Assembly (NCBI GenBank): GCA_020346605.1
Contig: CP070784.1
Location: forward strand, 2,008,105 to 2,072,104
DNA length: 64,000 nt
Reading direction: 5' to 3'
Source of the DNA: Candidatus Bathyarchaeota archaeon
GTDB taxonomy: Archaea; Thermoproteota; Bathyarchaeia; TCS64
Shown: piece after piece, positions 49,630 to 51,292 of the stretch
Position numbering within the stretch: the stretch's first letter is position 1
Layout: the number at the start of each line of letters is the position of its first letter
The notes under the pieces: generated by a model
Told to the model about the DNA's origin: nothing
Databases searched by the model: none
What the model saw: the letters and a program-made list of their open reading frames with translations, nothing else
Program-made: the position numbers and the translations under genes

Positions 49630-49749
49630 TCACGCCCAGACATTGAACTCCATTCCGCACTCGGGGCACCTGAGCTCGTTCTTCCCCGATCTGAGTCTGA
49701 TCCTGGCCGAGAAACCGCAGCCTGGACACCTAACGTTCTTGGAGCTCAT
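49630..49749 (-). CDS. small zinc-ribbon protein (39 aa)
   Basis: MSSKNVRCPGCGFSARIRLRSGKNELRCPECGMEFNVWA, with two CPxCG knuckles. Same strand as the PadR gene and 81 nt downstream of it. Below the ORF-track cutoff. Confidence 0.45.
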   Translation of the reverse strand: MSSKNVRCPGCGFSARIRLRSGKNELRCPECGMEFNVWA

Positions 49750-49830: not shown

Positions 49831-50172
49831 CTACTGGGTGGCGACCTTCGGCTGGTACTCCTGGAAGATGTCACCGTAGGCCCTGCAGAAGTACTCGCAG
49901 GCCTCCATGGCCCCCGTTCTCCCCCTCTCCGTGAGGCGGTAGATCTTCCTTCTGCCCTCCTGTCGGGCCTCCACGAGCCCGTTCTTCTCCAGCTCGCCGA
50001 GCGCCGGATAGAGCGTGCCGGGGTTCGGCCTAGTCCCCCGCCGCGCCTCGAGCTCGTCGGCGATCTCCTGTCCGTACATGTCTCTCTTGGTGAGCAGCCA
50101 GAGGATGGTGAAGGATAGGAGGCCCCTCATGTCGCAGCAGTTTGGGATGGGGTTCTCGCAGCAGTCTTCCAT
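49831..50172 (-). CDS. PadR-family transcriptional regulator with Cys-rich N-terminal extension
   Basis: 113 aa. MEDCCENPIPNCCDMRG precedes the PadR winged helix (FTILWLLTKRDMYGQEIADEL...GTLYPALGELEKNGLV). Confidence 0.8.
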   Translation of the reverse strand: MEDCCENPIPNCCDMRGLLSFTILWLLTKRDMYGQEIADELEARRGTRPNPGTLYPALGELEKNGLVEARQEGRRKIYRLTERGRTGAMEACEYFCRAYGDIFQEYQPKVATQ

Positions 50173-50190
50173 TGCGTATTATTGGACGAC

Positions 50191-50224
50191 CGATACATTT
50201 AAATTATTGCATGGAATAGTATCG
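50191..50224. promoter_or_regulatory. divergent promoter with inverted repeat around a palindromic TATA
   Basis: CGATAC (50191-96) and GTATCG (50219-24) enclose ATTTAAAT (50197-204). The TATA centre is about 27 nt from the PadR ATG (50172). Further CGATA/GATACG copies lie at 50231-48. Confidence 0.45.
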
Positions 50225-50250
50225 GATGTCCGATAATAGTGTGATACGAC

Positions 50251-51024
50251 ATGGTTGAGAACAGCGAGAAGATCAAGGAGCACGTGAGGGAGACGTACTC
50301 CCAGGTCGCCCAGAGGGCGCAGGCATCCTGCGGATGCGGCTGCGGGACGGCGTCGACGGCGAGCTGCTGCGGCCCCGTCTCCAAGGACGCCTACGTCCAG
50401 GGGATAGGCTACTCTCTGGAAGATATCAAGGAGCTCCCGGAGAGCGCCGTTGGCGCCGCCGCGGGATGCGGAAACCCCACGGCCATCGCCGGGCTGAAGG
50501 AGGGCGAGGTGGTCCTGGACCTGGGCTCAGGGGGAGGGATAGATGTCTTCCTCTCCGCGAAGAAGGTGGGCCCCAAGGGCAAGGCTATCGGCGTTGACAT
50601 GACCGACGAGATGCTGAACCTTGCACGCAAGAACGCCGAGGAGCTGGGCTTCGAGAACGTCGAGTTCAGGAAGGGCGACATCGAGGACCTCCCTGTGGAG
50701 GACGAGTCCGTCGACGTCATCATCAGCAACTGCGTCATCAACCTGGCCCCCGACAAGGATAAGGTCTTTAGGGAGGCCTACAGGGTGCTCAGGCCCGGCG
50801 GAAGGATAACCGTCTCCGACATAGTCACCGACGGCCCGCTGCCCCAGGAGATCAAGGACAACCCCGACGCCTGGGCGGCATGTGTCTCGGGAGCCCTCGA
50901 CAAGGAGGAGTACCTGCAGAAGATCAGGGACGCCGGCTTCCAGGATGTCAAGGTGCTGGACTGCAGGGGATTCGGCCTCGTCTACAGCGCCGAGGTAGAG
51001 GCATTCAAGGGAGCGCACGGCTGA
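50251..51024 (+). CDS. arsM: arsenite S-adenosylmethionine methyltransferase
   Basis: 257 aa. N-terminal Cys cluster CGCGCG...SCCGP, GCGNPTA, SAM motif [23 protein letters not shown] and AWAACVSGA correspond to the conserved ArsM cysteines and motifs. Confidence 0.9.
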
Positions 51025-51028
51025 AACG

Positions 51029-51292
51029 ATGTCGGAGTGCTGCGCCCAGACTGAATACCAGACCTGGAAGCGAGATTCCGAGCAGACGCTAATTGAGCTC
51101 CCCCCGGCGCTCGGGTTCGGCGAAGACATCACTCTGGCCAATGGAAACGTCGTGCTGCTCAGCGACGAGACTATGAAGTACCTGGAAGCGCTGAACCGAG
51201 TGATCCTCATTGAGGAGGACAGGGTGCTCAGCCTCGGTGAGACCGTCGCAAGGGTGCTCGACTTCTATAGAAGGTTCGTAAGGTTCGCCTGA
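51029..51292 (+). CDS. hypothetical protein (N-terminal vicinal Cys pair)
   Basis: 87 aa starting MSECC. The ATG is 4 nt after the arsM stop. No family recognised. Confidence 0.5.
   Translation: MSECCAQTEYQTWKRDSEQTLIELPPALGFGEDITLANGNVVLLSDETMKYLEALNRVILIEEDRVLSLGETVARVLDFYRRFVRFA

What the first reader, a model, noticed from the sequence alone, without database searches (positions are those of the whole stretch)
49831..50250. PadR-family regulator with CC-x7-CC N-terminal extension divergent from arsM: candidate non-ArsR arsenite sensor
The 113-aa PadR protein begins MEDCCENPIPNCCDMRG, with two vicinal cysteine pairs immediately before the winged helix. Its gene is separated by only 78 bp from the divergently transcribed arsM. 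Established As(III) sensors (ArsR/SmtB family) bind arsenite through three thiolates whose positions arose independently several times. I am not aware of a characterised PadR-type arsenic sensor. The intergenic region contains a palindromic ATTTAAAT TATA flanked by CGATAC/GTATCG and additional CGATA-type half-sites that could be its operator.
Basis: partly seen in the sequence, partly recalled or inferred. Interest (0 to 1): 0.6.

Follow-up and report, generated by a model that had tools for sequence, protein, structure and literature searches.

The report
Cysteine-rich PadR repressor guarding archaeal arsM
A small PadR-type DNA-binding protein with conserved cysteines sits back to back with an arsenic-methylating gene, sharing a promoter with two copies of its own binding site, in many sediment archaea; it is probably an untested, non-ArsR type of arsenic sensor.

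Summary
A 113-aa PadR-family gene (49831-50172, minus strand) starts MEDCCENPIPNCCDMRG and lies 78 bp from a divergent, bona fide arsM.

- **Linkage.** In 59 of the 80 best related loci, from several archaeal phyla, arsM sits immediately upstream and divergent.
- **Cysteines.** The first pair (C4, C5) is common but dispensable.
- **Correlation.** All 59 arsM-linked proteins have at least 4 cysteines in these motifs, against 4 of 20 unlinked ones. The unlinked ones fall in about 7 separate clades, and each has lost the helix pair.
- **Promoter.** The intergenic region has one TATA box flanked by two 16-bp palindromes, TATYGG-N4-CCRATA, 40 bp apart. This layout is kept across phyla. In 301 genomes of the class it occurs only where this PadR occurs.
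- **Displacement.** Other arsM genes in the class carry ArsR or HgcC-type cysteine-rich regulators instead.

The most likely reading is a thiolate-based As(III)/MAs(III)-responsive repressor of arsM and of itself. No biochemistry exists. I found no description in the literature. The closest precedent is MarR_ars. I class it as a new variant of a known kind.

The parts
49831..50172 (-). padR-CC gene: 113-aa short (single C-terminal helix) PadR-family winged-helix regulator
   Evidence: ORF. Pfam PF03551 at 68 bits. AF2 model with pLDDT 86: helices 15-29, 34-45 and 51-63, wing 67-80, helix 82-111. Foldseek top hits are 1xma, Rv3488, LmrR and hsRosR.
50134..50163 (-). Codons for the N-terminal cysteine tail, C4 C5 ... 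C12 C13 (CC-x6-CC), immediately before helix 1
   Evidence: C12, C13, D14, M15, R16 and G17 are invariant in alignment A1. Their codons vary synonymously. The tail is disordered in the AF2 model, with pLDDT below 50 at residues 1-3 and 11-13. The first pair is variable across loci.
49885..49899 (-). Codons for C92-E-Y-F-C96 in the C-terminal (dimerisation) helix
   Evidence: Both cysteines are present in 56 of 59 arsM-linked homologues and in 0 of 20 unlinked ones.
50180..50195 (.). Operator Op2, TATTGGACGACCGATA. It lies next to the TATA box on the padR side, between the TATA box and the padR start.
   Evidence: A site at this position is present in 60 of 60 linked loci.
50197..50204 (.). Palindromic TATA box ATTTAAAT, probably shared by both divergent transcription units
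   Evidence: It is the only conserved AT-rich element between the two operators in nearly all loci. Its centre is 28 nt from the padR ATG (leaderless) and 50 nt from the arsM ATG. There is a precedent for one TATA element driving two start sites 49 bp apart in P. furiosus (PMC6640164). Start sites here are inferred, not measured.
50220..50235 (.). Operator Op1, TATCGGATGTCCGATA (a perfect 7+2+7 palindrome), on the arsM side, over the predicted arsM transcription start
   Evidence: Two sites are found in 51 of 60 linked loci, and the start-to-start spacing is 39-41 bp in 43 of those 51.
50241..50245 (+). Shine-Dalgarno-like GTGAT, 5 nt before the arsM ATG (inferred)
   Evidence: The same position reads GGTGG or GGTGA in most related loci (as the reverse complement of CCACC/TCACC).
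50251..51024 (+). arsM, SAM-dependent arsenite methyltransferase (257 aa)
   Evidence: NF008823 at 337 bits against a cut-off of 263. Methyltransf_31. Cysteines at 27, 29, 31, 39, 40, 73, 161 and 211.
49630..49749 (-). 39-aa double-CPxCG zinc-ribbon ORF, 81 nt downstream of padR on the same strand. It is a lineage-specific companion.
   Evidence: tblastn finds it just downstream of padR in L008, L009, L013, L015 and L016 at 59-76% identity. It is absent from the other loci.
51029..51292 (+). 87-aa ORF (MSECC...) starting 4 nt after the arsM stop. It is lineage-specific.
   Evidence: Homologues are found only in L008 and L029. It has no Pfam or NCBIfam family.

Best explanation
The gene encodes a dimeric, short-type PadR-family repressor, here called PadR-CC. 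Without ligand it binds two 16-bp palindromic operators (TATYGG-N4-CCRATA, 40 bp apart, about four helical turns) that flank a single palindromic TATA box.

Op2 lies between the TATA box and the leaderless padR start. Op1 lies over the predicted arsM start. Occupancy of both would therefore block RNA polymerase recruitment in both directions, repressing arsM and padR itself.

Trivalent arsenic, either As(III) or the ArsM product MAs(III), is bound by cysteine thiolates. These come from the flexible N-terminal tail (C12 and C13, assisted by C4 and C5) and from the C-terminal helix (C92 and C96), near the dimer interface. Binding changes the dimer geometry, releases the DNA and switches on arsenic methylation.

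Shown here:
- family and fold;
- conserved linkage to arsM;
- the conserved operator and TATA layout, and its exclusive co-occurrence with the gene;
- the correlation between the cysteine set and arsM linkage.

Inferred:
- repression rather than activation;
- the transcription start sites;
- the ligand and its coordinating residues.
For: 1. **Linkage.**
   - arsM lies immediately upstream and divergent in 59 of the 80 best loci. These come from Bathyarchaeia, Methanocellales, Methanosarcinaceae, Hydrothermarchaeota, Methanomethylicota, Thorarchaeota and Nitrososphaeria.
   - In a draw of 301 genomes of the class, 48 carry a close homologue. In 40 of these arsM is side by side with it, and 4 more are cut by contig ends.
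   - No other neighbouring gene is conserved, so the unit is the two-gene module.
2. **Operator.**
   - Every linked locus has at least one copy of the palindrome, and 51 of 60 have two. Spacing is 39-41 bp in 43 of those 51, around one TATA box.
   - The exact double site occurs in 27 of 301 genomes. All 27 are PadR-CC-positive, and the site is always next to the gene. The reversed-pattern control gives 0.
   - In the window it occurs only here.
3. **Cysteines.**
   - C12 and C13 are invariant.
   - At least 4 cysteines are present in 59 of 59 linked proteins against 4 of 20 unlinked (Fisher 2e-13, not corrected for phylogeny).
   - The C92/C96 pair is present in 56 of 59 linked against 0 of 20 unlinked.
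   - On the tree the unlinked proteins form about 7 separate groups, at least 4 of them forced by supported branches. Each has lost a helix cysteine.
   - The three linked proteins that lack a helix cysteine (L050, L067, L084) each keep at least four tail cysteines: L050 and L084 have four, L067 has six.
4. **Displacement.** Other arsM genes of the same class are paired with ArsR carrying CxC (L088, L097, L099) or with HgcC-type cysteine-rich AbrB proteins (L100, L102, L104, L106).
5. **Precedent.** MarR_ars uses a vicinal Cys36/Cys37 pair plus the distal Cys157 to sense As(III)/Sb(III) and release its operator (10.1101/2021.08.12.456183).
Against:
- The AF2 monomer leaves the tail disordered, and I could neither model a dimer nor read the model's coordinates. 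Proximity of C12/C13 to C92/C96 is therefore unproven.
- Four cysteines could equally form a structural Zn site, or sense another soft metal or oxidation.
- The genome already has a classical ArsR (CQC) with ACR3 elsewhere, so a second arsenic sensor is not strictly needed.
- The only other double-operator promoter in the genome precedes a GlmS-N-like amidotransferase with no known arsenic link.
- About 120 of 165 arsM-bearing genomes of the class lack this regulator. G123, with a 73%-identical arsM, is one of them.
- The linked-versus-unlinked statistics come from the 80 loci most similar to the query.
Confidence: 0.62

Rival explanations
1. Same repressor and operators, but the cysteines sense something other than arsenic. 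Candidates are thiol oxidation (disulfide stress) or another thiophilic metal such as Cd(II), Hg(II) or Zn(II). In this reading arsM is one output of a general thiol-stress regulon.
For: - Short PadR relatives include hsRosR (oxidative stress) and Rv3488. Both are among the best sequence and fold matches.
- Unlinked Methanocellales relatives sit behind a pyridine-nucleotide disulfide oxidoreductase.
- A second candidate target in this genome is an amidotransferase, not an ars gene.
Against: - The full cysteine set is found only where arsM is the partner, and is lost each time the partner changes.
- The Methanocellales variant next to the oxidoreductase lacks the first pair and C96.
- ArsR and HgcC occupy the same place at other arsM genes.
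- The hosts are anaerobes, in which oxidative disulfide signalling is less expected (inference).
Confidence: 0.15
2. The four conserved cysteines form a structural Zn(Cys)4 clamp that ties the N-terminal tail to the C-terminal helix. The real effector, if any, binds elsewhere, for example in an LmrR-like pore at the dimer interface, or the protein is a constitutive autoregulator.
For: - Four invariant cysteines in two pairs are typical of zinc sites.
- F21 and F95, which are invariant, align with the LmrR pore residues V15 and W96.
Against: - Vicinal CC pairs are poor zinc ligands but classic arsenite ligands (established chemistry; ArsR, ArsD and MarR_ars).
- The number and position of tail cysteines drift (2 to 6, with spacing x3 to x7). 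In L067 loss of C92 goes with six tail cysteines, and L050 and L084 lose helix cysteines yet keep four tail cysteines. This fits a plastic three-thiolate site, not a rigid structural one.
- AF2 does not pack the tail.
Confidence: 0.1
3. PadR-CC is an arsenic-dependent activator, or a dual regulator, of arsM rather than a simple repressor. Op2 abuts the TATA box on the side where the BRE for arsM-directed transcription would lie.
For: - Seen from arsM, Op2 lies immediately upstream of the TATA box, the usual place for archaeal activators (and general knowledge of archaeal promoters).
- I found no separate arsM-oriented BRE-like purine run in the loci. The GGAA(A) run lies on the padR-oriented side.
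Against: - Op1 covers the predicted arsM start, and Op2 covers the stretch from the TATA box to the padR start. Both are repressor positions.
- Every characterised PadR-family member I know of is a repressor (from memory).
- MarR_ars and ArsR work by derepression.
Confidence: 0.08

Closest known systems
MarR_ars (AdMarR_ars of Achromobacter deleyi As-55; Yu et al., bioRxiv 10.1101/2021.08.12.456183)
   Same: A non-ArsR winged-helix repressor that lies next to an arsenic gene and binds its own promoter and that of its target. It uses a vicinal Cys pair (C36/C37) plus a distal C-terminal Cys (C157), and is released from DNA by As(III)/Sb(III).
   Different: It belongs to a different protein family. 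The window protein has no MarR hit: its Pfam match is PadR. MarR_ars is bacterial, its target is arsV, and it acts on sigma-70 promoters. Here the system is archaeal, with a shared TATA box, two 16-bp palindromes and arsM as target.
ArsR/SmtB As(III)-responsive repressors (R773 ArsR, AfArsR, CgArsR)
   Same: A small dimeric winged-helix repressor of ars genes. It is autoregulated, and the presumed ligand site is made of three or more thiolates whose positions vary between lineages. ArsR occupies the equivalent place at other arsM genes of the same class.
   Different: It is not a family member. Only a sub-threshold NF033788 match was found (25 bits against a cut-off of 55), and there is no CxC in the DNA-binding helix region. 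The cysteines lie in an N-terminal tail and in the PadR-specific C-terminal helix.
Short (subfamily-2) PadR regulators: LmrR (L. lactis), Rv3488 (M. tuberculosis), hsRosR (H. salinarum), Cth-833 (1xma)
   Same: The fold and size match: a winged helix plus one long C-terminal helix, with TM-scores of 0.65-0.73. All use palindromic operators and autoregulate. Rv3488 is reported to bind Cd (from memory; only the PDB titles were seen here).
   Different: None of them has the CC tail or the CxxxC helix motif, and none is linked to arsenic genes. LmrR binds planar drugs between W96 and W96'. Here the equivalent residue is F95, flanked by C92 and C96.
HgcC (NCBIfam NF040962), cysteine-rich AbrB-type proteins upstream of arsM/hgcAB
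   Same: A small cysteine-rich DNA-binding protein placed directly at arsM in sister Bathyarchaeia (L100, L102, L104, L106; 102-120 bits against a cut-off of 70). It appears to play the same role.
   Different: It has an unrelated fold (swapped-hairpin barrel), lies on the same strand upstream of arsM rather than divergent, and is itself uncharacterised.

Membership tests
PadR family (Pfam PF03551), short subfamily 2 | Sequence match to the PadR winged-helix model above the curated threshold | tested here: met
   PF03551 at 68.0 bits against a cut-off of 27, covering residues 23-86. 43 PDB PadR chains match by phmmer.
PadR family (Pfam PF03551), short subfamily 2 | Fold: three helices, a beta wing and a single long C-terminal helix, about 110 aa | tested here: met
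   AF2 model with pLDDT 86 and those elements. Foldseek probability 1.00 to 1xma, Rv3488, LmrR and hsRosR.
PadR family (Pfam PF03551), short subfamily 2 | Homodimer that binds a palindromic operator in its own promoter | tested here: inconclusive
   Two conserved 16-bp palindromes lie upstream of the gene and co-occur exclusively with it. Dimerisation and binding are not testable with these tools.
ArsR/SmtB metalloregulators | Match to the ArsR-type HTH (PF01022 / NF033788) above threshold | tested here: not met
   No PF01022 hit. NF033788 scores 25.3 bits against a cut-off of 55.
ArsR/SmtB metalloregulators | As(III) site of three cysteines, for example CxC in helix 3 or a C-terminal triad | tested here: not met
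   There is no cysteine between residues 14 and 91. The cysteines are at 4, 5, 12, 13, 92 and 96.
MarR_ars subfamily | MarR-family fold with conserved Cys36/Cys37/Cys157 | tested here: not met
   No MarR Pfam hit for the window protein. Only the logic is shared: a vicinal pair plus a distal cysteine.
Thiolate-based As(III)-responsive repressor (functional class, not a family) | At least three conserved cysteines whose presence tracks linkage to arsenic genes | tested here: met
   At least 4 cysteines in 59 of 59 arsM-linked proteins against 4 of 20 unlinked. The helix pair is in 56 of 59 against 0 of 20. There are about 7 independent losses on the tree.
Thiolate-based As(III)-responsive repressor (functional class, not a family) | DNA binding relieved by As(III)/MAs(III); As-S coordination | not testable with these tools
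   Needs EMSA, a reporter assay and spectroscopy.
ArsM arsenite methyltransferase (the partner gene) | Curated model score and the conserved catalytic cysteines | tested here: met
   NF008823 at 337 bits against a cut-off of 263. N-terminal Cys cluster, GCGNP C73, SNCVINL C161 and ACVSGA C211. The correspondence to CmArsM C44/C72/C174/C224 is from memory.

The most novel reading that the evidence does not exclude
PadR-CC would be the founding member of a PadR-scaffold class of metalloid sensors ("PadR_ars") and the main switch of arsenic methylation in a large part of the Bathyarchaeia and several other archaeal lineages. In this reading:
- a flexible vicinal-cysteine tail and a CxxxC on the dimerisation helix together capture As(III) or MAs(III);
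- one symmetric TATA box flanked by two operators gives coordinated, ligand-gated bidirectional transcription;
- together with ArsR, MarR_ars and HgcC, this would show that arsM has recruited at least four unrelated cysteine-decorated DNA-binding folds.
Probability: 0.55. Interest if true: 0.72.

Novelty: new variant of a known kind. Interest (0 to 1): 0.62.

Why it matters
- **Ecology.** Bathyarchaeia are among the most abundant archaea in anoxic sediments and paddy soils. Microbial arsenic methylation there controls arsenic mobility and rice straighthead disease.
- **Regulation.** Knowing which regulator and operator switch arsM on in these uncultured archaea gives a concrete, testable handle: a 113-aa protein and a 78-bp DNA fragment.
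- **Sensor diversity.** It adds another scaffold to the short list of direct arsenic sensors.
- **Tools.** It offers a compact sensor-plus-operator part for biosensors.
- **Archaeal transcription.** It is a clean natural example of a ligand-gated bidirectional archaeal promoter built on one TATA box.

Tried and rejected
- **Literature.** Six searches looked for prior descriptions or precedents and one for archaeal bidirectional promoters. None turned up a PadR-type arsenic sensor. Apparent PadR hits were surnames or generic mentions. Only open-access papers are covered.
- **A larger ars operon.** The other neighbours are unrelated housekeeping genes that differ between loci: tRNA synthetases, NDK, inositol-phosphate synthase, glycosyltransferase and ADI-fold genes. 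The idea was rejected.
- **A wider regulon through the amidotransferase.** Only the two closest orthologues (86% identity, L108 and L109) carry an operator. The other 27 homologues examined have none.
- **Chance adjacency, or an untranslated N-terminal extension with the true start at M15, as many gene callers assumed.** Both are rejected.
- **Contigs labelled as bacteria.** L013, L023, L071, L072 and L080 nest among near-identical archaeal sequences on the tree. I treated them as probable mis-binning, not as bacterial occurrences.

Full report
**Observation**

The ORF 49831..50172 on the minus strand encodes 113 aa beginning MEDCCENPIPNCCDMRG. It is a PadR-family protein: Pfam PF03551 scores 68 bits against a cut-off of 27, and 43 PadR chains of the PDB match by sequence.

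The divergent gene 50251..51024 is an arsenite methyltransferase. NF008823 scores 337 bits against a cut-off of 263. It carries the N-terminal Cys cluster and the GCGNP, SNCVINL and ACVSGA cysteines. The gap between the genes is 78 bp.

The spacing of the two pairs is CC-x6-CC, not x7. The extension is translated, because C12, C13 and D14 are maintained through synonymous codon changes across 78 loci.

**Structure**

An AlphaFold2 model built on 36 homologues (pLDDT 86) shows the following elements:
- a disordered tail (residues 1-13);
- three helices;
- a beta wing;
- one long C-terminal helix (82-111).

The best fold matches are the short PadR proteins 1xma, Rv3488, LmrR and hsRosR. C92 and C96 therefore lie on the helix face that forms the dimer-interface pore in LmrR. 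This is an inference. No dimer could be modelled.

**Conservation of the cysteines**

A search of 5.8 billion proteins gave 146 homologues, mostly from Bathyarchaeia metagenomes. In an alignment of 36 of them, C12, C13, D14, M15, R16 and G17 are invariant. ACEYFC (C92, C96) is conserved except in one subclade. The first pair, C4/C5, is frequent but not universal.

**Genomic context**

A scan of one genome per GTDB species found 516 relatives, and the best 80 loci were fetched.

- In 59 of the 80, an arsM homologue (46-84% identity) lies immediately upstream and divergent.
- The hosts include Bathyarchaeia, Methanocellales, Methanosarcinaceae, Hydrothermarchaeota, Methanomethylicota, Thorarchaeota and Nitrososphaeria.
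- No other neighbour is conserved. The unit is a two-gene module.

In an even draw of 301 genomes of the class, 48 carry a close homologue and 165 carry arsM. The 48 break down as follows:

| Situation | Genomes |
|---|---|
| padR and arsM side by side on one contig | 40 |
| Cut by contig ends (three show a partial arsM: L007, L013, L021) | 4 |
| Not adjacent, or no arsM found | 3 |
| arsM position not listed | 1 |

**Cysteines track arsM**

I counted the cysteines in the 16 residues before DMRG together with positions 92 and 96.

| Measure | arsM-linked | Unlinked |
|---|---|---|
| At least 4 cysteines in the two motifs | 59 of 59 | 4 of 20 |
| Both helix cysteines (C92 and C96) | 56 of 59 | 0 of 20 |

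The Fisher test on the first row gives 2e-13, not corrected for phylogeny. A maximum-likelihood tree built without the tail places the unlinked proteins in about 7 separate groups among linked ones. At least 4 changes are forced by well-supported branches. Each group has lost C92 or C96.

The unlinked groups sit beside other genes: a pyridine-nucleotide disulfide oxidoreductase in Methanocellales, a MarR-like gene, or a GNAT gene. The three linked proteins that lack a helix cysteine (L050, L067, L084) all keep at least four tail cysteines, and L067 has six. The site therefore looks plastic. This is typical of arsenite sites and atypical of structural zinc sites.

**Promoter and operator**

Written with padR to the right, the intergenic regions of the linked loci share one layout:
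1. the arsM ATG;
2. a Shine-Dalgarno-like GGTG;
3. the palindrome TATYGG-N4-CCRATA (Op1);
4. 12-16 nt;
5. a TATA box (ATTTAAAT or ATATATAAAT);
6. 1-2 nt;
7. a second palindrome (Op2);
8. 5-8 nt;
9. the padR ATG.

In the window, Op2 is 50180-50195, the TATA box is 50197-50204 and Op1 is 50220-50235. These are the only two matches to the pattern in 64 kb, with 0.17 expected.

- With up to one mismatch, all 60 linked loci have at least one site and 51 have two. Spacing is 39-41 bp in 43 of those 51.
- The exact double site occurs in 27 of the 301 genomes. All 27 are PadR-CC-positive, the site is always beside the gene, and the reversed-pattern control finds none.
- The TATA centre is 28 nt from the padR ATG, which implies a leaderless mRNA. 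It is 50 nt from the arsM ATG.
- If one symmetric TATA box drives both directions, the start sites fall near 50176 and 50225. A P. furiosus promoter has been shown to do this in vitro, with start sites 49 bp apart (PMC6640164).
- Under that assumption, Op2 lies between the TATA box and the padR start, and Op1 lies across the arsM start. Both are repressor positions. The start sites are inferred.

**Displacement by other regulators**

I fetched twenty arsM loci of the class that lack this PadR.
- Six have an ArsR-family gene, and the two sequences inspected carry CVC or CAC. In several the ArsR is divergent from an ACR3-arsM operon (L088, L089, L093, L095, L097, L099; PF01022 and PF01758).
- Four have an HgcC-type cysteine-rich AbrB protein directly upstream (L100, L102, L104, L106; NF040962 at 102-120 bits against a cut-off of 70).
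- The rest have no obvious adjacent regulator.

The window's own genome also has a classical ArsR (CQC) divergent from ACR3 at C1:212714-214157. Efflux and methylation therefore appear to have separate switches.

**Regulon**

The genome has one more double-operator promoter with identical geometry, at C1:529487-529542. It lies in front of a 346-aa GlmS-N-like class-II amidotransferase. The arrangement is kept in the 86%-identical orthologue of another PadR-CC-positive genome (L108). It is partly kept in L109 and absent from the 27 more distant homologues examined. Its meaning is unknown.

**Comparison with known systems**

I found no paper describing a PadR-type arsenic sensor. A 2024 review of bacterial metal sensing does not contain the word PadR.

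Non-ArsR arsenic sensors do exist. MarR_ars uses the vicinal pair C36/C37 plus C157, and As(III)/Sb(III) releases it from DNA. Notes from this scan report HgcC/AbrB-, MerR- and TrmB-type candidates at arsM elsewhere. I confirmed only the HgcC assignment here.

The present protein is therefore a new scaffold for a known strategy, not a new strategy.

**Verdict**

- Direct regulation of arsM and of itself by this PadR through the two palindromes is very likely, about 0.85.
- That the signal is trivalent arsenic bound by the conserved thiolates is likely but untested, about 0.6-0.65.
- Rivals are another thiophilic metal or redox signal, a structural zinc site, or activation instead of repression.

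Noticed in passing
outside the window: G000:C1:529487-529542 (locus L107:1429-1484): This is a second promoter with the same double operator (TATTGCACATCCAATA and TATTGGATGCCCAATA, 40 bp apart, with TTTTTATATAA between them). It lies 16 nt before a 346-aa GlmS-N-like class-II glutamine amidotransferase without SIS domains. The layout is conserved in the 86%-identical orthologue L108, partly in L109, and not in the more distant homologues. It is a candidate second regulon member of unknown role.
   Followed up: partly
window 49630-49749 (-): A 39-aa double-CPxCG zinc-ribbon ORF lies downstream of padR on the same strand. It is a real small gene, conserved in the same position in L008, L009, L013, L015 and L016 (59-76% identity), but only in the closest lineages.
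   Followed up: partly
window 51029-51292 (+): An 87-aa ORF (MSECCAQ...) starts 4 nt after the arsM stop. It has homologues only in L008 and L029 and no known family. It is a lineage-specific accessory with a vicinal Cys pair.
   Followed up: partly
L100:3466-3768, L102:2439-2762, L104:2412-2774, L106:3645-3926: In other Bathyarchaeia, arsM is preceded on the same strand by a roughly 100-aa cysteine-rich AbrB-type protein. It scores above the cut-off on NCBIfam NF040962 'HgcAB-associated protein HgcC'. This is another uncharacterised candidate metal(loid) regulator in the same niche.
   Followed up: partly
outside the window: G000:C1:212714-214157: A classical ArsR (with CQC in the DNA-binding region) lies divergent from an ACR3 arsenite efflux gene. 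The organism thus has separate regulators for arsenic efflux and arsenic methylation.
   Followed up: partly
L042, L053, L057, L059, L082 (Methanocellales): A PadR-CC variant that lacks the first Cys pair and C96, but has extra C-terminal cysteines, follows a Pyr_redox_2 disulfide oxidoreductase on the same strand. It precedes eRF1 and arginyl-tRNA synthetase genes. No arsM is nearby, and four of the five loci have no operator match upstream.
   Followed up: partly
L088:3680-4402, L095:2004-2717: A cysteine-rich DUF5714 protein (PF18978) lies directly downstream of arsM in ArsR-ACR3-arsM operons of other Bathyarchaeia.
   Followed up: no
L013, L023, L071, L072, L080: These contigs are labelled as Patescibacteria, Krumholzibacteriaceae, Acidoferrum and Methylomirabilota. 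They carry padR sequences that nest among near-identical bathyarchaeal ones on the tree. They are probably mis-binned archaeal contigs.
   Followed up: no
L012, L020, L023, L025, L027, L039 (genus g3 clade): These loci have a 92-bp intergenic region with a third, tandem operator copy on the arsM side, abutting Op1.
   Followed up: no
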